Origin: an uncultured virus (IMG/VR IMGVR_UViG_3300038805_000372)
Taxonomy: Duplodnaviria > Heunggongvirae > Uroviricota > Caudoviricetes
Length of the DNA: 20,000 nucleotides
Reading direction: 5' to 3' (one strand)
Virus record (IMG/VR): IMGVR_UViG_3300038805_000372
Shown here: in pieces, positions 8,058 to 20,000 of the stretch
Position numbering within the stretch: the stretch's first letter is position 1
How the letters are laid out: the number at the start of each line of letters is the position of its first letter
Made by a program: the position numbers and the translations under genes
Notes under the pieces: generated by a model
The model's database searches: none
Told to the model about the DNA's origin: nothing
Seen by the model: the letters and a program-made list of their open reading frames with translations, nothing else

Positions 8058-8118
8058 GAGGTCGGTCAGCGTGGAGGAGTGTTTTGCTATGTGTGGATAT
8101 GTTCCGCCAATCGACCTC
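8058..8118 (-). ncRNA. candidate small RNA / structured 5' leader with a C-rich (anti-SD) loop
   Basis: GAGGTCGATTGGCG pairs with CGCTGACCGACCTC (14 positions: 1 mismatch, 2 G-U on the - strand). Loop contains ACACTCCTCCA. The 5' end lies 7 nt below the -10 of the promoter motif at 8125-8155. Confidence 0.5.
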
Positions 8119-8124
8119 ATAAGT

Positions 8125-8155
8125 AATATATCACAATCTTTTTCTATTATTAGTT
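8125..8155 (-). promoter_or_regulatory. phage-specific promoter motif copy 1 (AACTAATAATAG-N13-TATATT)
   Basis: Same box and spacing as three other copies; TG extended -10. Confidence 0.7.
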
Positions 8156-8347
8156 TATCGGTGTGATTTTGGAATAAATGATGCGTTGTTCTTCTGGTTG
8201 CAAGCTCGCTTTACGCCACTTCAACACCTTTTCGGCTTTGGTAATGCTCTCGTGTTCACCGATCTCGGTTGTGGTTGTGATGACATTGCTGTCGCCCTTT
8301 AATAACGCAACGATGACTAACCGACACTTTTGTTTAATTCCTCGCAT
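8150..8347 (-). CDS. hypothetical protein (65 aa)
   Basis: ORF track; AAGGAG SD. Confidence 0.65.
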   Translation of the reverse strand: MRGIKQKCRLVIVALLKGDSNVITTTTEIGEHESITKAEKVLKWRKASLQPEEQRIIYSKITPIN

Positions 8348-8348
8348 T

Positions 8349-8513
8349 TTAATTCATCTCCTTTTTATTTATGGATTCTTCATCTTCAAATATCAATCGT
8401 AATTCTTCGGCGGTAAACTCGATGTGATCGTTGGCATCAATGTTGCCCTTTTTGTATTCGGCAATAAAAGCTTCGACCGCCTCAACTAAGTATTGTTTAG
8501 TTTTTTTACTCAT
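8349..8513 (-). CDS. small acidic hypothetical protein (54 aa, MSKKTKQYLVEAVEAFIAEYKKG...)
   Basis: Translated manually; ATGA overlap with the replication initiator. Confidence 0.6.
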   Translation of the reverse strand: MSKKTKQYLVEAVEAFIAEYKKGNIDANDHIEFTAEELRLIFEDEESINKKEMN

Positions 8514-9583
8514 ATCTTTTTAATTCCTTTCATTGCCGAGAAGTCGATGGCTGATAGCGGTATGTCCATATCGACGGGATTATACTCGGTTAATTTTCGC
8601 TCGGCTTCTTCTTCGGTGATTTTACCTTGTGCGACTTGTATTTTTAATTCGAGCGAGTATGCGTATTCGCTATTGGGTGTCGCTTCCGCCAATCTCGCTT
8701 TTAATAGAGCAATATGTTCTTTATTATTTATTTCTGCCATTTTGGCTTCCTTTCTTTCCTGCGCTTCGATTTGCTGTTCAGTTGGTTTCGCGGTTAAGTC
8801 AATTTCGGTTTCATCATCCCAGCGCCCTTGATTTAACCAGGTGTATGGATGTGGTATGTATTGTCCATTATCGCGTTGCCATTGTTCACTTTGCTTTTGC
8901 TCGTTAATAGCATTTAGCATTTTATCGAGTAGTGGTTTATCAACCTTATGCACCCGAAACCAATTAGCGCATTTTTGTTTGCCAATTTTTCGTGGATAAT
9001 TATTCCAAAAATCATCGAATAAACTAATGCGATTTTGCATTGCTTTTTTTGGCACATCATTTTTCGTATCATTTTGGAGTTCATTGACCGTATCATCAAC
9101 GAGCGGTAGCGATGTGGTAGTTTTTGGATGATCAATAGTCTTTATATTACATTCCATTACATTACATTTATTTACATATTGGGGTGTCATTTGGTTGCCA
9201 AGTGGTTGCCAAGTGGTTGCCGAAGCGTCATTTTTTCGGCTTTTTAATCGGTATATTTTATCCTTTTCAAGTGTTAATTTACTCATGATTTCGCTATACT
9301 TTGAAGCCCTATATCTATCGCTTCTTTTCGGGTTATGAATCCACCAATGTTTAATCACACAAACACCACTTTCGCCAAAGTGAATAATGAATTTCTTGGC
9401 AATCAATTCAGCGAGCGCGTTTTCGTTAGTGCCAATCAATCTGGCGGTAATAATTGCATTGTTTACGACACCATCATCATCAGCAAAGAATAGCAAGGCA
9501 ATGTATAATGCCCTCGCTTCAAACGAGAGCAACACATAAGCATCGCTCAATATAATTTCTTCCGCTATACATTTCCTTTTCAT
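8510..9583 (-). CDS. phage replication initiator / replisome organizer
   Basis: N-terminal SDAYVLLSFEARALY..L...ADDDG.V...IKHWWIHN motif; C-terminal FDDFWNNYPRKIGK...YIPHPYTWLNQGRWDDE domain; repeat-containing linker. Probable start ATG 9583. Confidence 0.85.
   Translation of the reverse strand: MKRKCIAEEIILSDAYVLLSFEARALYIALLFFADDDGVVNNAIITARLIGTNENALAELIAKKFIIHFGESGVCVIKHWWIHNPKRSDRYRASKYSEIMSKLTLEKDKIYRLKSRKNDASATTWQPLGNQMTPQYVNKCNVMECNIKTIDHPKTTTSLPLVDDTVNELQNDTKNDVPKKAMQNRISLFDDFWNNYPRKIGKQKCANWFRVHKVDKPLLDKMLNAINEQKQSEQWQRDNGQYIPHPYTWLNQGRWDDETEIDLTAKPTEQQIEAQERKEAKMAEINNKEHIALLKARLAEATPNSEYAYSLELKIQVAQGKITEEEAERKLTEYNPVDMDIPLSAIDFSAMKGIKKI
9145..9221. repeat. putative origin of replication: 11-bp tandem iterons (TGGTTGCCAAG x2 + TGGTTGCC, 9192-9221) next to AT-rich ATTAC-like pentamer repeats
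   Basis: Seen directly, in the linker of the initiator gene, as in lambdoid and Bacillota phage origins. Confidence 0.65.
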
Positions 9584-9584
9584 A

Positions 9585-10388
9585 CTATTTAATTCCGCCT
9601 TTCTTCCCACACACATATGTTGGTATTTTGAACACTTTTTCAATTTCCATCTTCATCACATATTCGTTCGCAATATCATCGGATAGGTGCATTAGGAATA
9701 TGCCTTTTAGTTGCGTTTTGTTTAATTCTCTGACGACCTTTTTTGTTCCCGCCAGCGATAAATGGTAATGGGCTTGGCGCGTGAACTTATATATTTTACT
9801 TCGCGCGATTGGGTCATCTTCATTACCTTGCGCGTGTTCCATCACTGCTTTTAATATCGCTTCAAGTTGTTTGCGAATATGGTTGCACTCGATGAATAGA
9901 TAGTCAATTGGCACTTTGTTTATTTGTGATGTATCGAATGTCTTGGTATCGTTGATAAACATTATCGTTTTTTTGCTAACCTTATCGTGAATCATAAATC
10001 CAAGTGCTGATGTATCGTGCTGCACATCGAATGGTTTAATAAAGAGGTCTGGCAGTATTTCATAAACATTGCCACTTTCGATAATGTGCGCCCGCTTGTG
10101 GTCAATTCCGCTCAATGTCGCACTATTTGCCCACACATCAATGTTCCGCTCTAATAATTCGCTTTTAGATAAAGAGTGGTCATTATGGTTGTGCGTTATC
10201 AAACAACTTTTTATGTTAGTTATTTGCATATTATTGCTGATCATTTTAGACAATAAGTCGTGGTACGATAGTCCGCACTCGACTAAAATATGGCGATTGT
10301 TGGGGAAAGCCATAACATAAGCGTTCCCCGAACTCGAACTCGCCAAGCAAACAAACGATACCGAATTGTCGTTAGAACGGTAATTCAT
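9585..10388 (-). CDS. MBL-fold metallo-hydrolase (YycJ-like exonuclease)
   Basis: LASSSSGNAY, ILVECG, LITHNHNDHS (HxHxDH), HD, FINDT, IECNH, HLS, LMHLS motifs. Probable start ATG 10388. Confidence 0.9.
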   Translation of the reverse strand: MNYRSNDNSVSFVCLASSSSGNAYVMAFPNNRHILVECGLSYHDLLSKMISNNMQITNIKSCLITHNHNDHSLSKSELLERNIDVWANSATLSGIDHKRAHIIESGNVYEILPDLFIKPFDVQHDTSALGFMIHDKVSKKTIMFINDTKTFDTSQINKVPIDYLFIECNHIRKQLEAILKAVMEHAQGNEDDPIARSKIYKFTRQAHYHLSLAGTKKVVRELNKTQLKGIFLMHLSDDIANEYVMKMEIEKVFKIPTYVCGKKGGIK

Positions 10389-11514
10389 CTTCTTTCTCTT
10401 TTTCTTCTCTTTCACCCTTTGCACCATCTTTGATTTTTTGGGCTTTCCATTCATCGAAAGTTAAGCCACTTGTGTTTTTGGGCGTTTCGGTTTGTTCCGC
10501 CTCGTCAACGGGCGCTTGTGTGGCTTCTGGTGCGGCAATGGTAATCTCATCATCGCCATCTTGCTCTTTTAATGTTTCGATAACTTGTTCGGCTGATGTC
10601 AATCTTGGTTTTTCACGATATTGTTCATAATCTTCAAAGGTGTTTTCAAATGCCTCGCGGACGAATGTATTAGAGAAGTTTTTAGGATATTTCTTGGTGG
10701 CATTGTTCATCATCTTTCGCTCAATCATCGCTTCCCTGCTTTGTGGCATTATCCACGATGGCGATATTAGCGTTTTCTCTTTGCCATATTTATCCTTATA
10801 GATTCTTAACGATTTGTCTTTTAACATTTCATCAAGTGTCATATCTTCGATTTTATCGATAATGCTTTGTTTGGTTTCTTCATCGGCGTTGCGAGCATTA
10901 TTGAGAATGTGGGCTTTAAGATTAGTTGCGACTTCTTCTCTATCACTTATTAACCATTCATCGCGACCATCGGTTTTGATAACGCGATAGACAACACGCT
11001 CGATTGGTTGTGAATATGATTTAGGTTGCCATGTTGGCGGAACTTGTCCATCAACATTAAATTGTGGGAATGTAAAGCCATCGCCTTTTCTAACTTTCCA
11101 TGCATTGTCAAGCGACTTAACGCCCTCGCCATATTTGCGGAGCAGTTTATCATTGCCAACGCCCTCAACAAAGAACTCAAACTCTTTGCGGATGATAACG
11201 CCATTTTGATAAACTTTGCGGATTTGAAATCCACATTCACGCGGTATCGCGTTAGTGTTCAATCTTAACAAAGCAACTTGGCTTAACACCTTTGTAATGT
11301 TGCTCTGGTCAAAGTCGCTCATCTTCAAGCCATCGGCAGTTGCGATTTCGTTTAATTTGCTGATTGCTGAATAAACGCACGCCCTTTGCTCGTCATCGAA
11401 CTTGATATTATTGCTCGTTAACGATTGGGCTACGCTTTGCAAATAAACACTTTGCGCCTTTTGTAGTGCGGTTTGGAATCCGCCTTGTGTTGCAGTAATT
11501 TCTCTCTTGTCCAT
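10372..11514 (-). CDS. RecT/Redbeta-like single-strand annealing protein with an acidic C-terminal tail
   Basis: VALLRLN..AIPREC.FQIR, EG.GND.LLRKYG, MIERKMMNNATKKYPK resemble Bacillota phage RecT-like recombinases. Located between the ATPase and the MBL nuclease. Confidence 0.7.
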   Translation of the reverse strand: MDKREITATQGGFQTALQKAQSVYLQSVAQSLTSNNIKFDDEQRACVYSAISKLNEIATADGLKMSDFDQSNITKVLSQVALLRLNTNAIPRECGFQIRKVYQNGVIIRKEFEFFVEGVGNDKLLRKYGEGVKSLDNAWKVRKGDGFTFPQFNVDGQVPPTWQPKSYSQPIERVVYRVIKTDGRDEWLISDREEVATNLKAHILNNARNADEETKQSIIDKIEDMTLDEMLKDKSLRIYKDKYGKEKTLISPSWIMPQSREAMIERKMMNNATKKYPKNFSNTFVREAFENTFEDYEQYREKPRLTSAEQVIETLKEQDGDDEITIAAPEATQAPVDEAEQTETPKNTSGLTFDEWKAQKIKDGAKGEREEKEKEDELPF

Positions 11515-11523
11515 ATTTTCTCC

Positions 11524-12027
11524 TTATAAGATGGGATTGCCCCATAAATCATATTGTCGGGTTTTGCTTTCCGGCTCTTTAATCGGCTCGCTCGGTGCGA
11601 AGCTTTCCCAGAACTGATTGGCGAGTGATTTTTCATCTATCACATCGCCACGCCCACTAATTAATCGACCTTGACCATCACGCCTAATCTTGCGTTTGAT
11701 AATGCTGTATTCAATTAAAGGTGTCATTGCCCTTTGATATAATCGCTCGGCATATTCTTCGGCTTCGGCATCGTCTTTGGCGAACTTAATATCGCCTTGT
11801 GGATTTCTAATCAGCACTTTGCCAATTAACGACCACGCGTCTTGTAATGCTTTGCTATCGTTATAAATGTCAATGCACTTATCGTGTTTGTGTGGGTTAG
11901 TGTTGTAGGTGTAGTGTTCGGGCAACATTTCACATATCTCTTTTTTCGAGTAATAACGATCGTGATTGCCATCGCTCAATAAATCATGTAATCGCCATTG
12001 TCTTGGCGTTAATGTAATGTCGCTCAT
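11524..12027 (-). CDS. hypothetical protein, possible N-terminal winged-HTH
   Basis: LTPRQWRLHDLL...YSKKEICEML pattern; GAAAGG SD. Confidence 0.6.
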   Translation of the reverse strand: MSDITLTPRQWRLHDLLSDGNHDRYYSKKEICEMLPEHYTYNTNPHKHDKCIDIYNDSKALQDAWSLIGKVLIRNPQGDIKFAKDDAEAEEYAERLYQRAMTPLIEYSIIKRKIRRDGQGRLISGRGDVIDEKSLANQFWESFAPSEPIKEPESKTRQYDLWGNPIL

Positions 12028-12051
12028 TTTTTCCCTTTCTTATTTATCATT

Positions 12052-12082
12052 ATTTTACCATCTTAAATCGCTATTATTAGTT
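12052..12082 (-). promoter_or_regulatory. phage-specific promoter motif copy 2 (AACTAATAATAG-N13-TAAAAT)
   Basis: Same box and 13-nt spacer; TG extended -10; upstream of 11524..12027 and the RecT-like gene. Confidence 0.7.
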
Positions 12083-13252
12083 TTCGCGCAATGTTCCCAC
12101 CTCAATCTCGTGGAACAAATCGCTAACCTTTGCGGTGATAACTTGGGCGTTGGTTTTAATCTTGGTGGCGATGCTTTCGCTATCGAGCGCTTCGCCTTCG
12201 TCAAAGATGATCGGTAAGTCTGGCAAATTGCCTTTTCTTTTCAATGCCTCAATGATGGCAATACCAGTAATAACCTTTTCACTCGTGCTTCCCTTTTCAA
12301 ATTTGGTTTGTTTACCAATAATATATGGATAGCACACTTCTTTGAAGCTTCCCTCTTTGATATTGCTCTCGATTAGATTGAACTTTACTTTGCCGAATGT
12401 TTGCGCGATATTTTCATTTAACTTTTGATATTTCAGAGCAATGAACTGCTCTAATGCAACTTGCTTAATTTCCAATTCGCTAACTGTCTTTATAAATATG
12501 TCTTGCTGATTGACTAACTCGTTAACCAACCTTTCTTTAATCTCGGACGCTATGATTTGCGCGCTCGTTATGTAGTTCATAATGAGTTTAGTGTTAGATA
12601 TATCGTTTTTAGCGGTTTTTAGGCGCGTTGCGAGGTTTTTGACTAATAAAGGTATATTGTTCCCAACTTTCTCTAATTCGCGTTGTAGGTGGGCTTGTAG
12701 TGTCGGCTCATTCGCTAACAATTCCAAGTTGTCAATGTCGCCTGCTAATTTAATAACAATTTCACGCACCACTTTATAATCATTGATTTCAGTCCATAGT
12801 GGATTGATGATCATCGCATAGTCGCCATTATAACCAAAGTATTCATTCAGCAATATCTCGGCATCTTTCTTTAATGGTATGTCAACGCCATTAATGATGT
12901 ATTTTGTCGTATGACCCTTTAATGTGCGCGTTTCAACATTACCGCGCGACACTTCCCAAACTTCTTGATATTGCTTTTCATAAATCAGCCCATCGTGATC
13001 GCCACGAGTAAAATATGCTTTGACCGATACGCACGTGTTTGGTTTATTGTGCGGTTTATTGGCTTGCTCGTCTGAACTGCCCGATAGTGATTTGCCTGTC
13101 ATTAACCAACTTATCGCTTCAAGCACATTTGTTTTGCCGATGGCATTTTTTCCCATAATCGCGCATCTACCACTTCCAAAGCTAATTTTCAAGTGTTCGA
13201 TATTGCGAAAGTTGCTGATTTCTAATGTTTGCAGTTTAATGTTATTTTCCAT
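12077..13252 (-). CDS. SMC/Rad50-like ABC ATPase (AAA_23 type) with a short coiled coil
   Basis: LEISNFRN, Walker A GKNAIGKT, signature-like GSTSEK, Walker B PIIFDEGE. Start probably ATG 13252 (alternative 13261). Confidence 0.85.
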   Translation of the reverse strand: MENNIKLQTLEISNFRNIEHLKISFGSGRCAIMGKNAIGKTNVLEAISWLMTGKSLSGSSDEQANKPHNKPNTCVSVKAYFTRGDHDGLIYEKQYQEVWEVSRGNVETRTLKGHTTKYIINGVDIPLKKDAEILLNEYFGYNGDYAMIINPLWTEINDYKVVREIVIKLAGDIDNLELLANEPTLQAHLQRELEKVGNNIPLLVKNLATRLKTAKNDISNTKLIMNYITSAQIIASEIKERLVNELVNQQDIFIKTVSELEIKQVALEQFIALKYQKLNENIAQTFGKVKFNLIESNIKEGSFKEVCYPYIIGKQTKFEKGSTSEKVITGIAIIEALKRKGNLPDLPIIFDEGEALDSESIATKIKTNAQVITAKVSDLFHEIEVGTLREN

Positions 13253-13583
13253 AAAAACCATCCTTATGTATGCGATTGACTGCGATTTGAAGTTGCTTAA
13301 TTAAATTGTTCAAATTGCTTTTATCGAGTGTGGTATGGACTTCGATTTCGATTGAATTGAGTATCGGCTTAATGACACTATTGACTTCTTCGTGATAACC
13401 GCCATTATGCCATTCGACTTCTTTCCGCTCGACTTCTTCCATCGCCTCATAAAACGCTGGTGTATCATACGGGTCGGCATTGTTATATTCGCCACCTGTT
13501 AAATTAGCGATATATTCCTCTAACTCATCGTAATTGACAAACTCTTGCCCATCATATTCATAAATCGTTTTTTTGGTTTTCAT
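13242..13583 (-). CDS. acidic hypothetical protein (113 aa)
   Basis: ORF track; AAGGAG SD. Confidence 0.7.
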   Translation of the reverse strand: MKTKKTIYEYDGQEFVNYDELEEYIANLTGGEYNNADPYDTPAFYEAMEEVERKEVEWHNGGYHEEVNSVIKPILNSIEIEVHTTLDKSNLNNLIKQLQIAVNRIHKDGFYGK

Positions 13584-13594
13584 AATTCACTCCT

Positions 13595-13768
13595 TTATAC
13601 GATGTTCGCGTATTTCTCGCCAATGATACAATGAACGATATTATACTTTTGGCTAATACAATTTTCCTTTGTGAAGTTATCTAATGCTTCGTGCGTTTCG
13701 AACTCTTGCGTGGTTATTTCCCAAGTTTCAACATCTTGCAATACCAATTTACAATAGTAATTTCCCAC
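13595..13768 (-). CDS. small hypothetical protein (57 aa, GTG start, MGNYYCKLVLQDVETWEITTQEFETHEALDNF...)
   Basis: Translated manually; AAGGG SD; fills the intergenic gap. Confidence 0.6.
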   Translation of the reverse strand: MGNYYCKLVLQDVETWEITTQEFETHEALDNFTKENCISQKYNIVHCIIGEKYANIV

Positions 13769-13895
13769 TTTTAATTTCCCTTTCTATTTTGCGGTTTAGT
13801 GTTTGATTGACAACTATCATACCAAACGCGATTAACAAACCTATAAACGCGGTAATGCTTATTAGCATAAAGCACGCCATTATCAAGTTGATCAT
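13749..13895 (-). CDS. small single-TM protein (48 aa, MINLIMACFMLISITAFIGLLIAFGMIVV...)
   Basis: Translated manually; ATGA overlap with the HTH gene. Confidence 0.55.
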   Translation of the reverse strand: MINLIMACFMLISITAFIGLLIAFGMIVVNQTLNRKIEREIKSGKLLL

Positions 13896-14113
13896 TGTTC
13901 ATCATCCCATAGCATTTTATAGAGTTCAGATAGTGTCATATTAAAGTAATTAGCAATCTTCTTCATTGATTTGATGCTTGGTGCGTGTTTGCTTGTTTCG
14001 ATGTTCATGAGTGTTTGGTTGGTTAAGCCCAATTCTTTCGCTAACTCAATTTGCGATAAACCCTTCGCCATTCGGGCGTGTTTTAACCAACCACCTAATT
14101 TTGATTTTCTCAT
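13892..14113 (-). CDS. XRE/Cro-family HTH transcriptional regulator
   Basis: LKHARMAKGLSQIELAKELGLTNQTLMNIETSKHAPS is a classic HTH_3 pattern. Probable start ATG 14113. Confidence 0.9.
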   Translation of the reverse strand: MRKSKLGGWLKHARMAKGLSQIELAKELGLTNQTLMNIETSKHAPSIKSMKKIANYFNMTLSELYKMLWDDEQ

Positions 14114-14143
14114 ATTGTTTTTGTTTCCTTTCTGCACATAGTT

Positions 14144-14174
14144 ATTATACTATGCAATTTCCTTATTATTAGTT
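14144..14174 (-). promoter_or_regulatory. phage-specific promoter motif copy 3 (AACTAATAATAA-N13-TATAAT)
   Basis: Same box and spacing; perfect -10; embedded in the 3' end of ORF 14150..14398. Confidence 0.7.
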
Positions 14175-14398
14175 TCAGGCGCGTCTTTGATAAAGTAAAC
14201 TTCATGACATTTGTTTTTGTAAATGATCCGCTTTTGTTTTCCCTTGAATAATTGCGATAGAATCACACTTGCGATCTTTCGTTTAATGCCAAAGTAATCG
14301 GCGAATTGTGGTGCGTTATCAAGCACTACGGTTAAGTCCTCATCATCTTCATAGACTGCGATGCAATATGCACCTTTGTAAAGTTTAGCTGTTTTCAT
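14150..14398 (-). CDS. small putative DNA-binding protein (NUMOD1-like HTH)
   Basis: IAVY...VVLDNAPQFADYFGIKRKIASVILS resembles the NUMOD1 beta-HTH pattern; tentative. Confidence 0.55.
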   Translation of the reverse strand: MKTAKLYKGAYCIAVYEDDEDLTVVLDNAPQFADYFGIKRKIASVILSQLFKGKQKRIIYKNKCHEVYFIKDAPETNNKEIA

Positions 14399-14429
14399 TT
14401 TGTTCCCTTTCTTGGTATTTTAATCAATT

Positions 14430-14585
14430 TTACGATTGAAGCCACAATGTGCCATCGCATATTTGGTCGCAACCATATCTTTTAATGAGTTTATTGACTA
14501 CTTCTTGAGTGGGGTTTTTCCACACGTATTTTCGACCGTTTTCCCCCCATCTCACAATGGTTTTAATAACTGCTTTGCTTTTCAT
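14430..14585 (-). CDS. small early hypothetical protein (51 aa, MKSKAVIKTIVRWGENGRKYVW...)
   Basis: AAGGAG SD 6 nt before ATG 14585. The longer track start runs through the ribozyme and is unlikely. Confidence 0.7.
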   Translation of the reverse strand: MKSKAVIKTIVRWGENGRKYVWKNPTQEVVNKLIKRYGCDQICDGTLWLQS

Positions 14586-14593
14586 AATCTGCT

Positions 14594-14650
14594 CCTTCTC
14601 GCTCTGCCTTACTTGCGGACTTGCGACCGCCATTGGTGGCATTAAGAAAG
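14594..14650 (-). ncRNA. twister ribozyme, type P1 (copy A)
   Basis: CUUUC-U-U^AA-UGCC-AC-caaug-GCGG-UCGC-AA-GU-CCGC-aaguaa-GGCA-GA-GCGA-GAAGG. P1, P2, P4 and both pseudoknots (AC/GU, UCGC/GCGA) fit the twister consensus. Predicted cut between 14644 and 14643. Confidence 0.88.
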
Positions 14651-14663
14651 GACTTTTTAGTCC

Positions 14664-14924
14664 TTATTGCTCCTTCTTGATGCTTTCCATCATTGCTTTA
14701 ATGCTTATACCAAGTTTGGCACGCTCGTTTATTGAGCGACTTTTTAGCACGCTTCTGGTGACATAATTTTTGGCTTCTTGTTGTGTGGTAAAATCGTCAA
14801 TGTAGTTGCCAAGTAAGTCGCTGACGACATAAATGTCGCTTGAAGATTTAACGAAATCGCCACTTTCGTCATAAGTGAAATTAACCTCTGGCACTCTAAT
14901 AATCAAATGGTTTTTATATTTCAT
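14664..14924 (-). CDS. early hypothetical protein (86 aa, MKYKNHLIIRVPEVNFTYDESG...)
   Basis: AAGGAG SD 5 nt before ATG 14924; first gene after the early promoter. Confidence 0.75.
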   Translation of the reverse strand: MKYKNHLIIRVPEVNFTYDESGDFVKSSSDIYVVSDLLGNYIDDFTTQQEAKNYVTRSVLKSRSINERAKLGISIKAMMESIKKEQ

Positions 14925-14931
14925 AACCACT

Positions 14932-14986
14932 CCTTCTCGCTCTGTGTTATACGGGGTTGCGACCGTCTTCGCCCACATTACGAAGG
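14932..14986 (-). ncRNA. twister ribozyme, type P1 (copy B)
   Basis: CCUUC-G-U^AA-UGUG-GG-cgaag-ACGG-UCGC-AA-CC-CCGU-auaa-CACA-GA-GCGA-GAAGG. Compensatory changes relative to copy A in P2, P4 and the 2-bp pseudoknot. Predicted cut between 14980 and 14979. Confidence 0.88.
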
Positions 14987-15018
14987 GCTTTCTCCTTGCG
15001 ATTTCTTTTCGCACCTTT

Positions 15019-15046
15019 ATCTTACCACATAAAAAACGAATAGCAA
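15019..15046 (-). promoter_or_regulatory. sigma70/sigmaA-like early promoter (TTGCTA-N16-TAAGAT, TG extended -10, A-rich upstream tract)
   Basis: Just downstream of a terminator and just upstream of twister B. Confidence 0.6.
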
Positions 15047-15089
15047 ACACTTTTTTAATTTTTTTTTATTCGGTTGCTATTTATATAAT

Positions 15090-15112
15090 AAAAAAGACCT
15101 AACAAGTAGGTC
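15090..15112 (-). terminator. rho-independent terminator
   Basis: GACCTA-cttgt-TAGGTC hairpin followed by TTTTTT on the - strand, just after the stop of 15132..16070. Confidence 0.75.
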
Positions 15113-15131
15113 AATTTATTCGATGTGGTGC

Positions 15132-16070
15132 TTATAATTCGGTGATTTCTGGTTTCGGTGCATCTTCGTTTAATGGTTTCGGTAATGGTGCTTCGTCGAT
15201 CACAATATTATTAGCGATTTCGATTTCGGTAATTATCTCTTTACCTAACGACATAAGGTTTAGTATTGTCGGGTATTTATCTTCATCGACTACGCGTTTA
15301 CCTGTTTGTATTCCTTGATAACATCCCCACGCAAACATAAGTAACTTAATCACAAATATTAAGATTGATGCAGTATTCACGCCATATTCGCCAAACACCA
15401 TTACCGCGTTAGCGAAAGCGATAATTATGGTCATTATGAATGGCATTGCAGAAAACTTTAATCCCGTTGTGTATGGGTGCGATATATATTTACTCCCAAC
15501 TTTCCGATTGCCCGTTCCAAATGCGAACATATTATCAAAGGTAGTGTAGTCATATTTAATGCGTAATGTGGCTAAATTAAGCGTTCCCTTGTATTCTGGC
15601 ACTTTACCATTAAGGAAGTCAATATATGCCAACACATCGTTTTTTTGTGCTTCAATTTTAAGGACTTCGCTATCGGTAATCTTCTTTGATAGTAATTGGT
15701 TATCTAATATGTCCAAATAAGCTTCGCACTTTGATAATTGATTATGGACTTTTAAGCGTTCTCTGAACTCTTTATTGACGCGTTTTTTAATGATTAAGTT
15801 GCGATATTTTTTGAGTGTATTAGCGATTAACATATAATCGGGATTCGCCATTCCCACATCCAAACCCATTGGGAAATAAATACCGCGACCAGCGACAAAG
15901 TTCATTATGCTGAATGTAAATTCAAACCAATTAAACTGCGTGATGTCAAACCTTACTTGCAATAACAAAGTAAAGACCATCAACGCGACCATCAAGAATG
16001 TTAAAAGCGAGGTAATAACAACCCTCGCGCGCCCGACTTTTATGGGCTTCAAATTCAACCTTTTATTCAT
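15132..16070 (-). CDS. membrane protein (2 TM + soluble domain + 2 TM), 312 aa
   Basis: Hydrophobic pairs near both termini; AAGGGG SD; preceded by its own promoter-motif copy. Confidence 0.75.
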   Translation of the reverse strand: MNKRLNLKPIKVGRARVVITSLLTFLMVALMVFTLLLQVRFDITQFNWFEFTFSIMNFVAGRGIYFPMGLDVGMANPDYMLIANTLKKYRNLIIKKRVNKEFRERLKVHNQLSKCEAYLDILDNQLLSKKITDSEVLKIEAQKNDVLAYIDFLNGKVPEYKGTLNLATLRIKYDYTTFDNMFAFGTGNRKVGSKYISHPYTTGLKFSAMPFIMTIIIAFANAVMVFGEYGVNTASILIFVIKLLMFAWGCYQGIQTGKRVVDEDKYPTILNLMSLGKEIITEIEIANNIVIDEAPLPKPLNEDAPKPEITEL

Positions 16071-16093
16071 AAAACAATTTTCCCCTTTATTTT

Positions 16094-16124
16094 ACTATAC
16101 AACACAATATCTTTATTATTAGTT
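16094..16124 (-). promoter_or_regulatory. phage-specific promoter motif copy 4 (AACTAATAATAA-N13-TATAGT)
   Basis: Same box and 13-nt spacer as the other copies. Confidence 0.7.
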
Positions 16125-16578
16125 ATTTCTTGCCTTTTGGCTTTTTAGCGAACGCTACGCGCATTGCTTGTTCGATTTGCGTTTGTTCGCGCTCGGCAAC
16201 CCAAGCTGGTAATGGATTAACCACGATGCCGATGGCGACGCTTGGAATCACGATATATAGTATGCGTTGTATTTTCATTACATTTTCAGCAATTACGCTT
16301 GTCATAAATAGAATTAAGACCAATGGCACGATGACATACATTATGCCAACGATAATTTGCTTTACTAACCCTTGTTCTAATGCCTTAACAATGCGCGACA
16401 AGGCATAAAAAATTGGTATGGACACGATAGCGATTAAAATTAACGACCAACCGCCCATCATAAACCGTCCCTCGACATTAAATAAATCATAGTAATAATT
16501 TATAGCAAGAAAAGGCACTATGCAGGTAAAAAACATAAATGCGATTAACTTAACCCAAAACTTTGTTCTATCGCTCAT
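16123..16578 (-). CDS. 4-TM membrane protein with a basic C terminus (holin-like candidate)
   Basis: Four hydrophobic helices and a KKPKGKK tail; located after the tail genes. Confidence 0.6.
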   Translation of the reverse strand: MSDRTKFWVKLIAFMFFTCIVPFLAINYYYDLFNVEGRFMMGGWSLILIAIVSIPIFYALSRIVKALEQGLVKQIIVGIMYVIVPLVLILFMTSVIAENVMKIQRILYIVIPSVAIGIVVNPLPAWVAEREQTQIEQAMRVAFAKKPKGKK

Positions 16579-16589
16579 GATAAATTACC

Positions 16590-17090
16590 TTAAAGCGTTT
16601 CAGTATAATCTACTGCGTTTTCAATTTCGGCGATGGCTTGTTCTTTGCGTTCTTCTTTTGCCGCTTGTTCGGCGACAAACTCTTTAACTTCTTCTTTTAC
16701 CTTTTCAATTACAACGGTTTTAATGCCTTTGACCTTTGATACATTTTCAATCAAAGCAAGTTTAGATTGTGGATCAGTGCTATTTGATAACACTAAACTT
16801 TCGACCTGAACTTTGGCAATAGCTTCAATGTTCTTCAAATATTCAAGGATAGGCGATAATGCCTTATCGACCGCAATAGTAATAACTTCATCAATCTTGC
16901 TTTCCACAAGCGGTGTTAATTCGCTCATAATGTCATCTTTAATTTCGGTTGGTGTCAGTGCTTTATATTTGCGGTATTTCGACCATATGATTCCAGCCCA
17001 AGTTAAAATGCCACTTGAAGCTAACCAAGTCATCAAGACGGTAAACTTCTCAAAATCGAATGTTGCAAACCAATTCATAATTTCATCCAT
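16590..17090 (-). CDS. N-terminal TM + coiled-coil protein (166 aa)
   Basis: One TM followed by a helical charged domain; AGGAG SD. Confidence 0.7.
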   Translation of the reverse strand: MDEIMNWFATFDFEKFTVLMTWLASSGILTWAGIIWSKYRKYKALTPTEIKDDIMSELTPLVESKIDEVITIAVDKALSPILEYLKNIEAIAKVQVESLVLSNSTDPQSKLALIENVSKVKGIKTVVIEKVKEEVKEFVAEQAAKEERKEQAIAEIENAVDYTETL

Positions 17091-17094
17091 ACTA

Positions 17095-17292
17095 TTAAAT
17101 CTCCTTTAATGCTTTCGCAATTTGTAATCTCAAAGTGTTTAATTCACTTTTCAATTCTTCGCATTTCGCCAATCGCTTATCACGATCAACTAACAACTCA
17201 TCAAGCGATGCAATTTCAAACTTGCCATCGCCGGTGCAAACGAGCAAATCGCCCTTTTTCGCTTTCTTTAATTCCCTAATGCTTATTTCCAT
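17095..17292 (-). CDS. small hypothetical protein (65 aa from ATG 17292)
   Basis: GAAAGGA SD before ATG 17292; C-terminal coiled coil. Confidence 0.65.
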   Translation of the reverse strand: MEISIRELKKAKKGDLLVCTGDGKFEIASLDELLVDRDKRLAKCEELKSELNTLRLQIAKALKEI

Positions 17293-17306
17293 ATTATTCC
17301 TTTCTA

Positions 17307-20000
17307 TTAATCTAATATCCAACTAAATGTATTGACACCATCTAATACCGTTAATTTCAAAGTGTATGTGCCATTTCCGGTTGGAAGTGCTGGTAATGTT
17401 TCGACAACACCACTATTGCCATTACCTAATAATGAGCGTGTGATAATTTCCGCAACAAGGTCATTTCCAATCGCCGAGAAGTGTGTGTCATTAAGCATAT
17501 TTGTATCGAAGAATGATACACCGCCTGTAATTTTGGCTTTGCTATTTGGGAAGTTATTGTAAAGGTCAATCGTTGGAATGCCATATTCCCTTGCGACATC
17601 TATTTGTGCTTTACGATAAGCATAATAATCGCCACCACCATAATTGACACTTTCATCGTATCTTTTTTGCGGTAAGACTAACCATATCTTTTTGGCTGGG
17701 TATTTTGTTGCAAGTCTATCATAGGTTAAACGCATCGCACCATAGAAAGTAGTTGCGGACTTATTCGTAGTTGCCGAACTGCCAAGTGGTGTTGCCAACT
17801 TGAAGTCATTCATTGAACTAATGATAATGACATCGGCACTCGCACTTGTATCTTCGGTTAAAACACGATTAACAATAGCAGAAGCAGCGTCTTGCTGAAC
17901 AGTATTTTCCGCCCAAGCACCCCCGCTCAAACCAAAGTTTAGAACAGTTGCACCAAGTTTTTTAGCAAGTAAGGCGGGATATGATGTATCTTTTTGGTCG
18001 CCCACACCACTCGGATCGCTTGTTGGATTGTTGCTTTCTCGACTATCGCCCCATATCGCTATGACTTTATCTCTAAATGGATTGTCAAGGGCGGTCATTC
18101 GGGCTTCGAGAACGCTAATTTTACGATTTGGTGATTGAATACCAGCATTATATTCAAGGACACTATTATCGGTATCAGTAATCGTATCGCCAAACACAAT
18201 ATTTAATTTGTCGGTCTTTGGTATAAACTCTAATACACCAAAATCAATGGCACTAAACTCGAAACTATCGGTTTCATTTGCTTTGGCGGTTAAACTACCA
18301 ACCAATGTGCGATTATATGCGATATAACCAATATCGGTGGACTTATCGTGTATCATCAAACGGAAGCGGTAATTATCGAACACATCATCATCTTTGAATT
18401 GTAATCTCAATGTGAGTGTGCCATCACTTTGTATCGTTCCCGTATTAAAACTGACATCGGGTGTCGGTGTTTCGCCCTCTGGCGCAGTCATTTTATAAAT
18501 GCTATTAGCCAATACGACACTTGTGCCATCAAATAATTCAATAGTCGGTAAAGTGCTGACCGCAGTAATATCGCCACTTTGGAATAACCGCTTAATTGAC
18601 ACTCTATCGCCACTAACGACATCTAATATACTTGCTTTTAAGGTAATCGTGTTATTGGCAGTTGCTGTGCCGCTAATGACAAACTCTTGGGCTAATGCGT
18701 TATAACCGATTGTAATGCCACTAACTGCGGTATAGGCAATATCGCTTGTTCCCATATCGAGTATGTTAGCGGTGCGATTATAGACATCGACATCGGTATT
18801 ATTGGTTGCTTCGGGCATTGCAAACGGAAGGAGTTTAGTCCCTTCATATAAAGCAACCTTAAACTTAAAATCAGTAAAGACCATACCCGCTTTATAAACT
18901 TGGAATACAAGCGTTTGACCGCTTGATCCATCGATATTCGGGTTAGCACCATCGGGCTTTAAGTCGCCAACACCATTGATATATGGGTCATATAAACTTT
19001 CACTGTTTTCATTGATACGATTACTAACACTTGTTCCACTAATTAAATAACCGCAATAAGAACCATTAAGGTCAATCGTCCCACTATCGAAGTATCGCAT
19101 AAGTTGTGTAGTCGTGCCAACGGGCAAACCAAAGTTCATACCCGTTTTAAGTATAATATTACCAGCACTTGTAGTTGTGCCATTGACCGTAAACATACCT
19201 GTCGTGTCATCATAGGTAATTGTTAAACCAAAACCCGTAATATTTGAAGCAATCGTATTGACTAAAAGGTTAGCCACCGACTGTCCACGACCTTCGACTT
19301 TTAATATGTTGCCAGACTTAATGCCCTCTAATTGATAATACTCAAACTTTTCGCTTGTAATACCGACAAAACTATCATAAACATCATTATCGACATCAAT
19401 GCCTAACTTTTTAATTAACTGCTTTTGATTTAATCGTAAGGTATCAAGGCGTTCTCTTGCTTCTTTTAAGTATTCACTATGTGTGGAAACTTGTGCCGAT
19501 GTGTTTTGAGCATATTTAACCTTGAAATCGGCTGGAACACCACTATCGTAAATGGCTTCAATTTGCCCATAATTCCAAGCACTAAATACTTTACCTAATG
19601 GACTTGCTTCGGCATTACCATTGGCTTTAACGATATAACCATCTTGCCAATACTCGCCACTTCTTAAAGTAATATCAAGTGGTAATTCGTCAATGACTTG
19701 CGGGTAATAAATAGCATCGCCATCATTATATTTAAGTGATATGGCAGTATCAGCACCATCGGGGTATAGAGCATTGATAACACTATCGGGAAAACCATTT
19801 TGCACCCATATATCCATTTGTGCTTTAATCTCGTCATTTGTTAAACGAGAGAATAATGTGCCATTATCATCGGCAACACCCTTTTTGATAAAATCGGTAA
19901 TGTTATAAACATTGATATTATCAACAAAGTAGAAGGAATTAATAGCACCATTTGTAAAGACACTAATACCTAAATTAGTGGTAGTGATATTAGAGGAAAA
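17307..20000 (-). CDS. tail fibre / receptor-binding protein with a C-terminal SGNH/GDSL hydrolase domain; 5' truncated by the window
   Basis: Frame is open to position 20000 (FSSNITTTNLG...). Beta-rich repeated modules; SGNH blocks IAIWGDS, NFGLSGG, SSMND and DTHF. Confidence 0.8.
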   Translation of the reverse strand, partial: FSSNITTTNLGISVFTNGAINSFYFVDNINVYNITDFIKKGVADDNGTLFSRLTNDEIKAQMDIWVQNGFPDSVINALYPDGADTAISLKYNDGDAIYYPQVIDELPLDITLRSGEYWQDGYIVKANGNAEASPLGKVFSAWNYGQIEAIYDSGVPADFKVKYAQNTSAQVSTHSEYLKEARERLDTLRLNQKQLIKKLGIDVDNDVYDSFVGITSEKFEYYQLEGIKSGNILKVEGRGQSVANLLVNTIASNITGFGLTITYDDTTGMFTVNGTTTSAGNIILKTGMNFGLPVGTTTQLMRYFDSGTIDLNGSYCGYLISGTSVSNRINENSESLYDPYINGVGDLKPDGANPNIDGSSGQTLVFQVYKAGMVFTDFKFKVALYEGTKLLPFAMPEATNNTDVDVYNRTANILDMGTSDIAYTAVSGITIGYNALAQEFVISGTATANNTITLKASILDVVSGDRVSIKRLFQSGDITAVSTLPTIELFDGTSVVLANSIYKMTAPEGETPTPDVSFNTGTIQSDGTLTLRLQFKDDDVFDNYRFRLMIHDKSTDIGYIAYNRTLVGSLTAKANETDSFEFSAIDFGVLEFIPKTDKLNIVFGDTITDTDNSVLEYNAGIQSPNRKISVLEARMTALDNPFRDKVIAIWGDSRESNNPTSDPSGVGDQKDTSYPALLAKKLGATVLNFGLSGGAWAENTVQQDAASAIVNRVLTEDTSASADVIIISSMNDFKLATPLGSSATTNKSATTFYGAMRLTYDRLATKYPAKKIWLVLPQKRYDESVNYGGGDYYAYRKAQIDVAREYGIPTIDLYNNFPNSKAKITGGVSFFDTNMLNDTHFSAIGNDLVAEIITRSLLGNGNSGVVETLPALPTGNGTYTLKLTVLDGVNTFSWILD

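What the first reader, a model, noticed from the sequence alone, without database searches (positions are those of the whole stretch)
14585..14986. Tandem twister ribozymes fused to the ribosome-binding sites of the first two early genes
Seen: two ~56-nt minus-strand elements fit the P1-type twister consensus and covary with each other (P2 UGCC/GGCA vs UGUG/CACA; P4 GCGG/CCGC vs ACGG/CCGU; pseudoknot AC/GU vs GG/CC). This implies selection on structure, not just recent duplication. In both, the 3' strand of P1 (GAAGG) overlaps the SD AAGGAG, 5-6 nt before the ATG. Known: twisters cleave at U^A, leaving a 5'-OH product, and do occur in phages. Inference: cleavage releases the anti-SD P1 5' strand and cuts the early transcript into separate mRNAs with structured 5'-OH ends. 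This would be a self-cleavage-coupled translation/stability switch for the earliest phage genes.
Basis: partly seen in the sequence, partly recalled or inferred. Interest (0 to 1): 0.9.

Follow-up and report, generated by a model that had tools for sequence, protein, structure and literature searches.

The report
Twister ribozyme leaders on phage genes
Two self-cutting RNA elements (twister ribozymes) in an uncultured phage each end in the ribosome-binding site of a small gene, and the same elements sit in front of many different genes in related phages, which gives a testable job to a ribozyme class whose natural role is still unknown.

Summary
Two minus-strand elements (14986-14932 and 14650-14594) are the only Rfam matches in the window. 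Both hit twister-P1 over the full model but below the gathering score (41.2 and 35.3 bits against 67.2), because the optional stem P3 is missing. A P3-less model built from 20 unrelated phage twisters scores them at 60.2 and 57.0 bits. Ten of the 13 substitutions between the copies fall in five base pairs as compensatory double changes, including pseudoknot T2. In both copies the 3' strand of P1 overlaps the AAGGAG Shine-Dalgarno by 4 nt, 5-6 nt before the ATG.

New findings: a phage 95-97% identical on both sides lacks both twisters and the 86-aa ORF between them, so they are accessory. Near-identical twisters (96-98%) precede at least eight different ORFs in ten metagenome contigs, and the flanks diverge sharply at the twister edges.

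Best reading: these are portable hairpin-twister-SD leaders that cut each accessory gene's mRNA free of its context. The cleavage-gated "switch" is unproven and probably weak. No cleavage or RNA-end data exist.

Ribozymes flanking single phage genes are known for hammerheads, and an SD inside P1 has been engineered. This scan noted similar layouts before on other DNA.

The parts
15096..15112 (-). Terminator-like hairpin with a U run, closing the upstream (tail-fibre side) gene block
   Evidence: 6 pairs, loop 5, T run; conserved in relative L229
15019..15114 (-). Promoter-like region. TTGACC-18-TATTAT lies at 15114-15085 (tool call). A second candidate, TTGCTA-16-TGgTAAGAT, lies at 15046-15019 (read by eye, 8 of 12, below the tool's cut-off)
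   Evidence: same sequence in L229. Consensus matches only
14992..15013 (-). Leader hairpin (15013-14997) followed by an AAGGAG copy (14997-14992). In the twister-less relative this AAGGAG is the SD of the first gene. Homology to that relative ends at 14989
14932..14986 (-). Twister B (type P1, no P3). P1 5' strand 14986-14982; predicted cut 14980/14979; GAGCG 14942-14938; P1 3' strand 14937-14932. Only the 3' half (GCCC, 14988-14985) of the usual upstream hairpin is left
   Evidence: 35.3 bits; 57.0 bits, E 9.4e-14
14930..14935 (-). SD AAGGAG of the 86-aa ORF; 4 of its 6 bases are in the P1 3' strand of twister B
14664..14924 (-). 86-aa ORF with no family match. Its 3' end holds a second GAAGGAGCA (14676-14668)
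   Evidence: no PHROG or Pfam match; 4 relatives at 85-100% identity among 5.8 billion proteins; none in viral contigs
14649..14664 (-). Hairpin AGGACU-AAAA-AGUCCU directly 5' of P1 of twister A (probably optional stem P0); it shares C14650 and U14649 with the P1 5' strand
   Evidence: in the MFE structure; kept, with changed stems, in other contexts
14594..14650 (-). Twister A (type P1, no P3). P1 5' strand 14650-14645; predicted cut 14644/14643; GAGCG 14604-14600; P1 3' strand 14599-14594
   Evidence: 41.2 bits; 60.2 bits, E 1.2e-14
14592..14597 (-). SD AAGGAG of the 51-aa ORF; 4 of its 6 bases are in the P1 3' strand of twister A
14430..14585 (-). 51-aa ORF, homologous to the 63-aa first gene of the twister-less relative (L229 2395-2586)

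Best explanation
Both elements are genuine minimal (P3-less) type-P1 twister self-cleaving ribozymes. Each belongs to a portable leader module with this order: GC hairpin (probably stem P0), pyrimidine-rich P1 5' strand, U^AA cut site, ribozyme core, P1 3' strand that is also the front of the Shine-Dalgarno, a 5-7 nt spacer, then ATG. The modules sit in a hypervariable block of small accessory genes just behind a promoter-like site of an uncultured phage from anaerobic-digester-type habitats, and they are exchanged among related phages together with different ORFs.

Inferred mechanism: as soon as the core is transcribed, the RNA cuts itself at 14980/14979 and 14644/14643. The upstream piece ends in a hairpin with a 2',3'-cyclic phosphate. 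The short P1 (5-6 pairs, duplex -5.0 to -7.5 kcal/mol) falls apart. Each small gene then has a fixed leader of its own: a 5'-OH end folded into the ribozyme, then a free SD. Translation initiation therefore no longer depends on what lies upstream. This is a natural counterpart of engineered ribozyme insulators and of the engineered SD-in-P1 twister.

Shown: the fold, the covariation, the SD overlap, the presence/absence difference and the portability. Inferred: the cleavage itself, P1 release, and any effect on translation or stability.
For: Fold:
- The two twisters are the only Rfam hits in the window.
- Model R1, built from 20 phage twisters outside this family, scores them 60.2 and 57.0 bits and finds nothing in the homologous 9.2 kb of the relative.
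- On 30 P3-less twisters, 91.9% of pair cells are paired against 69.6% in shuffles. Covariation is 0.575 against 0.159, reached by 0 of 500 shuffles. Slid registers pair at most 46.4%.
- T2 is paired in 84 of 87 distinct twisters, with three pair types.
- The flipped central pair of T1 (GUCGC with GAGCG) is real. The mixed form matched 4 times, 0 of them twister-like. The matched form matched 44 times, 28 of them twister-like. A third type, GUCAC/GAGUG, occurs in G005 and G006.
- The window copies carry all 18 columns that are invariant in A1.

Accessory and portable:
- Relative L229/G004 is 97.4% and 94.6% identical on the two sides but lacks the segment, and RF03160 finds 0 hits in its whole 38.4-kb record.
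- Twelve further A- or B-type copies in 10 metagenome contigs are 96-98% identical to the window's. Their flanks are only 24-69% (upstream) and 52-60% (downstream) identical. They precede at least 8 different ORFs, each with an ATG 7-9 nt after AGAAGG or AGAAAG.
- Contigs of other runs break at the twister edges.
- Small P1 changes keep pairing with the SD strand: U.G to C-G in L238, C/A to U-A in L246, U.G to U-A in L248a.
- The same layout occurs in G001, a phage with unrelated genes that carries three twisters in series.

Literature:
- An engineered 'type P1 SD' twister gave 5-fold more reporter when active (PMC5052635, section 5 read).
- P1 is conserved yet dispensable for cleavage (PMC5408937, passages).
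Against:
- Both copies are below Rfam's gathering score.
- SD masking is partial (4 of 6 nt), and the folding model, which ignores pseudoknots, predicts a modest effect in A and none for the 3' half of the SD in B.
- Twisters are fast and P1 is not needed for cutting, so any masking may last only moments.
- A near-identical phage does without the modules. The MKIKLE-type ORF occurs both with a twister leader (L237, L241, L246) and without one (L229).
- SD-in-P1 is a minority layout. An SD-like 4-mer lies in the 8 nt after the core in 11 of 67 clusters, against 5 of 67 on the 5' side. The SD overlaps P1 by 3 nt or more in 12 of 87 (the automated calls contain some errors).
- In L248a the SD is weakened to GAAAGAG, and in L248b P1 is nearly lost.
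- Recalled, not checked here: in Bacillus the 5'-OH product of the glmS ribozyme is degraded by RNase J1, so a 5'-OH end need not stabilise.
Confidence: 0.55

Rival explanations
1. Cleavage-gated translation switch. P1 hides the SD until the ribozyme cuts, so the rate or regulation of cleavage sets when and how much the two first genes are translated.
For: The P1 3' strand covers AAGG of the SD in both copies. P1 variants keep pairing to it. The engineered SD-in-P1 twister gave a 5-fold effect (PMC5052635). Predicted P(unpaired) of GAA in copy A rises from 0.43-0.65 to 0.97 after cutting.
Against: No ligand-sensing or other regulatory domain is present: these are minimal twisters without P3 or P5. 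P1 is dispensable for cutting (PMC5408937). Masking is partial. In copy B a downstream hairpin is predicted to hold the last three bases of the SD stretch regardless of cutting. The modules are absent from a 95-97% identical phage.
Confidence: 0.2
2. By-product reading. The ribozymes act only as processing sites, or are selfish or hitch-hiking repeats that serve as about 57-nt homology joints for gene shuffling. The SD overlap then comes from tight packing or from recombination at SD microhomology, with no effect on translation.
For: Breakpoints between variants lie at the twister edges. Twisters are 96-98% identical where the flanks are unrelated. Each window twister lies between two SD copies: 14997-14992 and 14935-14930 for B, 14676-14668 and 14598-14590 for A. 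The left junction cuts the upstream hairpin of B. The phage encodes a RecT-like protein. SD-in-P1 occurs in only 11 of 67 clusters.
Against: The compensatory changes show selection on the RNA fold, not only on the DNA. P1 variants keep pairing with the SD strand. The 3' strand of P1 is purine-rich (0.71 against 0.38 for the 5' strand) across 67 clusters.
Confidence: 0.17
3. Circular RNA. The 336-nt RNA between the two cuts (5'-OH and 2',3'-cyclic phosphate ends) is joined by a host RtcB-type ligase into a circular mRNA for the 86-aa ORF. This would rebuild a chimeric twister, because the P1 5' strand of A pairs with the P1 3' strand of B.
For: Both P1 3' strands are AGAAGG, and the 5' strand of A pairs with it over 6 pairs. 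Circular products of tandem phage ribozymes were considered for hammerheads (PMC3088659, passage).
Against: No back-join was seen (contigs only). Perreault et al. looked for such products with hammerheads and found none. Other contexts have single twisters or the A-then-B order.
Confidence: 0.03
4. Inactive look-alikes. The elements resemble twisters but do not cut, as decayed relics or as a different structured RNA.
For: Scores are below Rfam's gathering threshold. The conserved GC of T2 and one conserved C/G pair of T1 differ from the consensus.
Against: Every departure from the consensus is compensated on the partner strand. The copies carry all 18 invariant columns of A1 and are 96-98% conserved across contexts. 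About 20% of known twisters lack P3 (PMC5408937).
Confidence: 0.05

Closest known systems
Type-P1 twister self-cleaving ribozyme (Rfam RF03160; class reviewed in PMC5408937, passages read; the original paper, Roth et al. 2014, is not held and was not read)
   Same: P1, P2 and P4 stems, both pseudoknots T1 and T2, the U-A cut-site context, conserved L1 and L4 bases, and a short junction in place of P3, as in about 20% of known members.
   Different: The central pair of T1 is flipped (G-C for C-G). The conserved GC of T2 is replaced by AC/GU or GG/CC. The 3' strand of P1 doubles as the SD of the next gene. Scores are below Rfam's gathering threshold.
Engineered 'type P1 SD' twister construct in E. 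coli (Felletti et al. 2016, PMC5052635; section 5 and Figure 1 legend read)
   Same: SD and anti-SD are placed in stem P1 of a twister in a 5' leader; cutting frees the SD.
   Different: That construct is artificial and built on the env-9 type-P3 twister. It gave 5-fold activation but low absolute expression, which the authors ascribed to the folded RNA left before the SD. Here the layout is natural, minimal, only partly masks the SD, and its effect is untested.
Clustered hammerhead ribozymes flanking single genes in prophages (Perreault et al. 2011, PMC3088659; passages read)
   Same: Several self-cleaving ribozymes in series on one strand flank single small genes whose identity is not constant. 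Processing of long phage transcripts into single-gene mRNAs was proposed.
   Different: A different ribozyme class. That paper holds no occurrence of 'Shine-Dalgarno' or 'ribosome binding'. It does not report presence/absence between near-identical phages or identical ribozymes before unrelated ORFs.
RiboJ-type ribozyme insulators of synthetic biology (PMC6206723 and PMC8383906; search listing and abstract starts only)
   Same: A self-cleaving ribozyme in the leader removes the upstream RNA, so that a gene's expression is buffered from its genetic context.
   Different: RiboJ is an engineered hammerhead-derived part followed by a separate RBS. Here the element is a natural twister with the RBS built into its closing stem.

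Membership tests
Twister ribozyme, type P1 (RF03160) | Score at or above Rfam's gathering threshold (67.2 bits) | tested here: not met
   41.2 and 35.3 bits. The alignment shows the whole P3 hairpin of the model deleted. A P3-less model built from 20 independent phage twisters gives 60.2 and 57.0 bits.
Twister ribozyme, type P1 (RF03160) | [quoted passage not shown] | tested here: met
   A: P1 6 pairs, P2 4, P4 3. B: P1 5 pairs plus one G/A mismatch, P2 4, P4 3. Across 30 sequences P2 is 98.3% paired, P4 100% and P1 76.1% (P2 pairing was a filter of mine, so it is not an independent test).
Twister ribozyme, type P1 (RF03160) | Pseudoknot T1 (three Watson-Crick pairs between L4 and L1) | tested here: met
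   GUCGC pairs with GAGCG, with the central pair flipped relative to the consensus. The mixed form gave 0 twister-like among 4 matches; the matched form gave 28 among 44. A third, A-U, type occurs in G005 and G006.
Twister ribozyme, type P1 (RF03160) | Pseudoknot T2 (L2 dinucleotide with two bulged L4 bases) | tested here: met
   AC/GU in A and GG/CC in B. 84 of 87 distinct twisters are paired: GC/GC 74, GG/CC 5, AC/GU 5. 100% paired in A1.
Twister ribozyme, type P1 (RF03160) | Conserved core bases, including the cut-site adenine and the active-site guanine | tested here: met
   The window copies carry all 18 invariant columns of A1: U-A-A, CGGUC, CAA, CCG, and G, A, G and the final G of GAGNG. 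That the active-site guanine is the first G of GAGNG is recalled, not checked.
Twister ribozyme, type P1 (RF03160) | Site-specific self-cleavage giving 2',3'-cyclic phosphate and 5'-OH ends | not testable with these tools
   Only assembled contigs of RNA libraries could be laid, and they cannot show RNA ends.
Ribozyme-flanked single-gene units of phages (Perreault et al. 2011 type) | Two or more self-cleaving ribozymes on one strand bracketing single small genes of varying identity | tested here: met
   Window: B, 86-aa ORF, A, 51-aa ORF. L241: A, 77-aa ORF, B, 80-aa ORF. L248: A, ORF, B. G001: three in series.
SD-masking ribozyme switch (engineered type, PMC5052635) | SD fully sequestered in a ribozyme stem and released by cutting, with a measured change in expression | tested here: inconclusive
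   4 of 6 SD bases lie in P1. Folding predicts partial masking in A and no release of the 3' half in B. No expression data exist.

The most novel reading that the evidence does not exclude
Twisters are the conserved joints of a shufflable accessory-gene cassette system in phages. At the RNA level, each hairpin-twister-SD module makes the gene behind it a self-contained, context-proof translation unit. This would explain why stem P1 is conserved in evolution although catalysis does not need it. At the DNA level, the same roughly 57-nt element, 96-98% identical between cassettes, supplies the homology, long enough for RecT-type annealing, by which related phages swap the genes between them.
Probability: 0.25. 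Interest if true: 0.8.

Novelty: new variant of a known kind. Interest (0 to 1): 0.6.

Why it matters
The natural role of bacterial and phage twisters is an open question: reviews call it elusive or speculative (PMC6765202, PMC5408937; passages read). It is also unexplained why stem P1 is conserved when it is dispensable for cleavage.

This locus offers a concrete and cheap test system:
- two minimal twisters whose P1 is the ribosome-binding site;
- a natural twister-less control phage, 95-97% identical on both sides;
- the same ORF family found both with and without the leader;
- a set of natural P1 variants.

If the leaders insulate or boost translation, they would be the natural counterparts of engineered ribozyme insulators and SD-masking aptazymes, and compact (about 57 nt) parts for synthetic operons. 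If instead they are only recombination joints, that would point to a role for ribozyme sequences in phage mosaicism.

Tried and rejected
- Rfam at gathering threshold: no hit.
- Phage GenBank collection: no match to the 801-nt region (distant mode) or to the whole window (near mode).
- No whole genome is held for the window.
- Host: the twister+SD pattern in genome contigs gave 3 loci, all in GC 0.63-0.67 genomes and none with UAA plus P2, so they are chance matches and name no host. Likewise 3 of the 15 metagenome loci (L239, L247, L250) are chance matches. A low-GC Gram-positive host is only a guess, from window GC 0.367, the strong AAGGAG sites and a DnaD-like loader.
- The 86-aa ORF: no PHROG or Pfam match, no relative in viral contigs, and only 4 near-identical proteins in the large protein database. 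Its function stays unknown.
- RNA evidence: the two RNA-labelled runs laid (X17, X15) are assembled contigs and cover the twisters only in part. Stretches without cover say nothing, and nothing shows transcription or RNA ends. One X17 contig joins 14400 to 14990 and skips the cassette, but it is a single contig with a 30-nt side at 85% likeness, so it is weak.
- G001 as a relative: only 1 of 31 window ORFs hit its 19-kb region, so it is an independent case of the layout, not a homologous locus.
- G007, a distant relative by the ATPase, has no twister.
- Four weak Rfam hits in the 801-nt scan (CRISPR-DR18, snoZ162, bxd_6, ylbH; E 5.9-9) are noise.
- Literature: five full-text searches found no paper describing a natural twister whose P1 holds an SD. 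Roth et al. 2014 is not held and Felletti et al. 2017 was not found as a held paper; Weinberg et al. 2015 was not looked up. None of the three was read, and they or their supplements may bear on this.
Full report
**What is there**

The window is phage-like. On the minus strand it carries the following, in order:
- a tail-fibre gene with a GDSL domain (17307-19817);
- three unknown ORFs;
- a terminator-like hairpin (15112-15096) and promoter-like hexamers;
- a run of small ORFs;
- an HTH regulator, an SMC/AAA ATPase, a RecT-like protein, a hydrolase, a DnaD-like loader and a DNA methyltransferase.

No whole genome is held. The GenBank phage collection has no match. Window GC is 0.367.

**The two elements are twisters**

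Rfam at gathering threshold finds nothing. With E-value reporting, the only two matches in the whole window at E<=0.5 are twister-P1:
- 14596-14648(-), 41.2 bits, E 3.8e-6;
- 14934-14984(-), 35.3 bits, E 2e-4.

Both align to model positions 1-68 with the P3 hairpin deleted. P3 is optional and is replaced by a short junction in about 20% of known twisters (PMC5408937, passages).

I built a model (R1) from 20 P3-less twisters of viral contigs that do not belong to the window's own family. It scores the window copies 60.2 bits (E 1.2e-14) and 57.0 bits (E 9.4e-14).

**Covariation**

Between the two copies there are 13 substitutions and one 2-nt indel:
- 10 substitutions fall in five base pairs as double changes (two pairs in P2, the outer pair of P4, both pairs of T2);
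- 2 lie in the P1 5' strand;
- 2 lie in the unpaired linker.

On an alignment of 30 P3-less twisters, the structure with both pseudoknots compares with its controls as follows:

| Measure | Observed | Control |
|---|---|---|
| Pair cells paired | 91.9% | 69.6% in shuffles |
| Covariation score | 0.575 | 0.159 in shuffles |
| Shuffles reaching the observed value | 0 of 500 | - |
| Paired with 3' partners slid 1-3 columns | - | at most 46.4% |

Two caveats apply. My filter required P2 pairing. My two search patterns fixed the T1 combinations.

I therefore tested T1 separately. The mixed form (GUCGC with GAGGG) matched 4 times in viral contigs, and none was twister-like. The matched form gave 28 twister-like among 44 matches. 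Two relatives, G005 and G006, use a third pair type, GUCAC/GAGUG.

T2 was not fixed on its 5' side. It is paired in 84 of 87 distinct twisters, with three pair types.

**The SD overlap**

In both copies the P1 3' strand is AGAAGG and the SD is AAGGAG, so 4 of the 6 SD bases lie in P1.

**New: the twisters are accessory**

The ATPase gene led to L229/G004, a complete 38.4-kb viral record. Its relation to the window is as follows:
- It matches the window at 97.4% over 14989-17366 and at 94.6% over 8104-14413.
- It has no twister anywhere: RF03160 finds 0 hits at E<=1 in the whole record, and R1 finds none in the 9.2-kb locus.
- It has the same promoter-like region and leader hairpin, followed by AAGGAGG, 8 nt and the ATG of a 63-aa ORF homologous to the window's 51-aa ORF.

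In the window, that same AAGGAG (14997-14992) is followed from 14988 by twister B, the 86-aa ORF, a hairpin and twister A. Other B copies are preceded by a complete GGGC...GCCC hairpin (L237, L241, L244). The window keeps only the GCCC half. This suggests that the module was joined here by recombination inside the hairpin (inference).

**New: the twisters are portable**

A metagenome scan for the core plus AGAAGG gave 15 loci:
- 3 are chance matches in high-GC DNA;
- 1 is the window's own sequence (L245);
- 1 is the G001 type (L236);
- 10 hold 12 further A- or B-type copies.

These 12 copies are 96-98% identical to the window's copy of the same type. The 80 nt upstream are 24-69% identical and the 80 nt downstream 52-60%.

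They precede at least eight different ORFs of 55-136 aa, told apart by N-terminus and length. In all 14 copies of that table (window included) the ATG lies 7-9 nt after AGAAGG or AGAAAG. The order of types varies: B then A in the window, A then B in L241 and L248.

Contigs of four public runs laid on the region break at the twister edges: about 14989, 14930, 14655-14666 and 14582-14592 (tables 7 and 8). Single contigs show three informative variants:
- only twister A, with foreign flanks on both sides (X15);
- the 86-aa ORF followed directly by the next ORF through an ATGA overlap, using the GAAGGAG at its 3' end as the SD, with no twister A (X5, record 21);
- a B-type 3' end joined to a 63-aa-type ORF (X5).

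These are single contigs of metagenomes and show variants, not frequencies.

**Wider survey of phage twisters**

They gave 85 distinct twisters plus the window's two, or 67 clusters by flank identity.

- An SD plus start codon lies within 120 nt in 70 of 87. The median distance from the core is 19.5 nt, quartiles 12-29. The automated calls contain errors, such as starts called at 6-7 nt.
- The SD overlaps the P1 3' strand by 3 nt or more in 12 of 87.
- An SD-like 4-mer lies in the 8 nt after the core in 11 of 67 clusters, against 5 of 67 in the 8 nt before the cut site.
- Anti-SD-like 4-mers lie in the 5' strand in 15 of 67, against 3 of 67 in the 3' strand.
- The purine fraction is 0.71 in the 3' strand against 0.38 in the 5' strand.

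So twisters in phages usually sit just before a gene start, and the SD-in-P1 fusion is a recurrent minority. It appears with different P1 sequences in unrelated contigs (L127, L134, L225, L051, L015). It also appears in G001, a complete 43.8-kb phage with unrelated genes (1 of 31 ORFs hit), whose three twisters in series each precede a gene.

A GC-rich hairpin abuts P1 on the 5' side in 58 of 67 clusters. The median MFE of the upstream 40 nt is -13.4, against -6.9 for shuffles. This is probably the optional stem P0 named in PMC5408937; its position is recalled, not confirmed.

**Mechanism**

Shown: the fold, the covariation, the SD overlap, and the modular and accessory nature of the elements.

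Inferred steps are these:
- The RNA cuts itself during transcription.
- The 5' product ends in a hairpin (MFE -12.4 for A).
- P1 then falls apart, since its duplex energy is only -5.0 (A) or -7.5 (B) kcal/mol.
- This leaves an mRNA that begins with the folded ribozyme and a free SD.

Folding without pseudoknots predicts that the first three bases of GAAGGAG in A go from 0.43-0.65 unpaired to 0.97. In B the last three bases of that stretch stay paired (0.01-0.10) in a hairpin with codons 5-8, both before and after cutting.

Several facts argue that a timed switch is unlikely. P1 is dispensable for cleavage. These twisters carry no sensor domain. The engineered SD-in-P1 construct gave only 5-fold.

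A constitutive, context-insulating leader fits the portability best. Small natural P1 variants that keep pairing with the SD strand (L238, L246, L248a) suggest that P1 does form. L248b has almost no P1.

**Comparison with what is known**

- Membership in the twister class is supported on every structural criterion. It is not met for Rfam's gathering score, and it is untestable for catalysis.
- Ribozymes flanking single, varying genes in prophages, with processing into single-gene mRNAs proposed, were described for hammerheads (PMC3088659, passages).
- The 2019 review states that roles of bacterial and phage twisters are only suggested (PMC6765202, passages).
- SD masking in P1 was engineered (PMC5052635).
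- Five full-text searches found no description of a natural twister with the SD in P1. Roth 2014 (not held) and Felletti 2017 (not found as a held paper) could not be read, and Weinberg 2015 was not looked up.
- Earlier notes of this scan describe similar layouts in other phages. They are unchecked leads, not support.

**Verdict**

The layout is a new natural variant of a known kind. The switch reading is only partly supported. The added value is a natural test system: twister-less twin phage, identical leaders on different genes and natural P1 variants.

Noticed in passing
viral-contig loci L110-L228 (for example L110, L127, L179): In 17 of 67 clusters of phage type-P1 twisters the UAA at the cut site itself closes a long open frame, so it may be the stop codon of the upstream gene. 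Cutting between U and A would leave that mRNA without a stop codon.
   Followed up: partly
L109 9716-9777, 11162-11230, 12403-12470 (minus strand; record G001): A complete 43.8-kb phage with unrelated genes carries three twisters in series within 2.8 kb. Each follows a GC hairpin and lies directly before a gene start. Two have the SD at or in the P1 3' strand.
   Followed up: partly
L233 79-136; L234 1498-1558: Twisters of two distant relatives (G005, G006) use a third type of central T1 pair (GUCAC with GAGUG) and precede the same gene. In G005 the element lies at the terminal repeat and appears at both contig ends.
   Followed up: partly
window 14668-14676 and 14590-14598 (minus strand): The 9-nt GAAGGAGCA occurs at the 3' end of the 86-aa ORF and again at the end of twister A, so twister A sits between two SD copies. 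AAGGAG likewise brackets twister B (14997-14992 and 14935-14930). This suggests joining at SD microhomology.
   Followed up: partly
window 14890-14931 (minus strand): Folding predicts a hairpin pairing the last bases of the SD stretch and the start region of the 86-aa ORF with its codons 5-8, before and after ribozyme cutting. It is a possible separate brake on translation.
   Followed up: no
window 17307-19817 (minus strand): The tail-fibre-like protein (836 aa) ends in a GDSL lipase/acylhydrolase domain (Pfam PF13472, E 2.2e-11), perhaps a receptor-modifying esterase.
   Followed up: no
L229 2633-2839: The twister-less relative carries an extra 68-aa ORF (MKIKLE type) that the window lacks at this place. 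The same ORF family is preceded by A- or B-type twisters in L237, L241 and L246, so it occurs naturally with and without the leader.
   Followed up: partly
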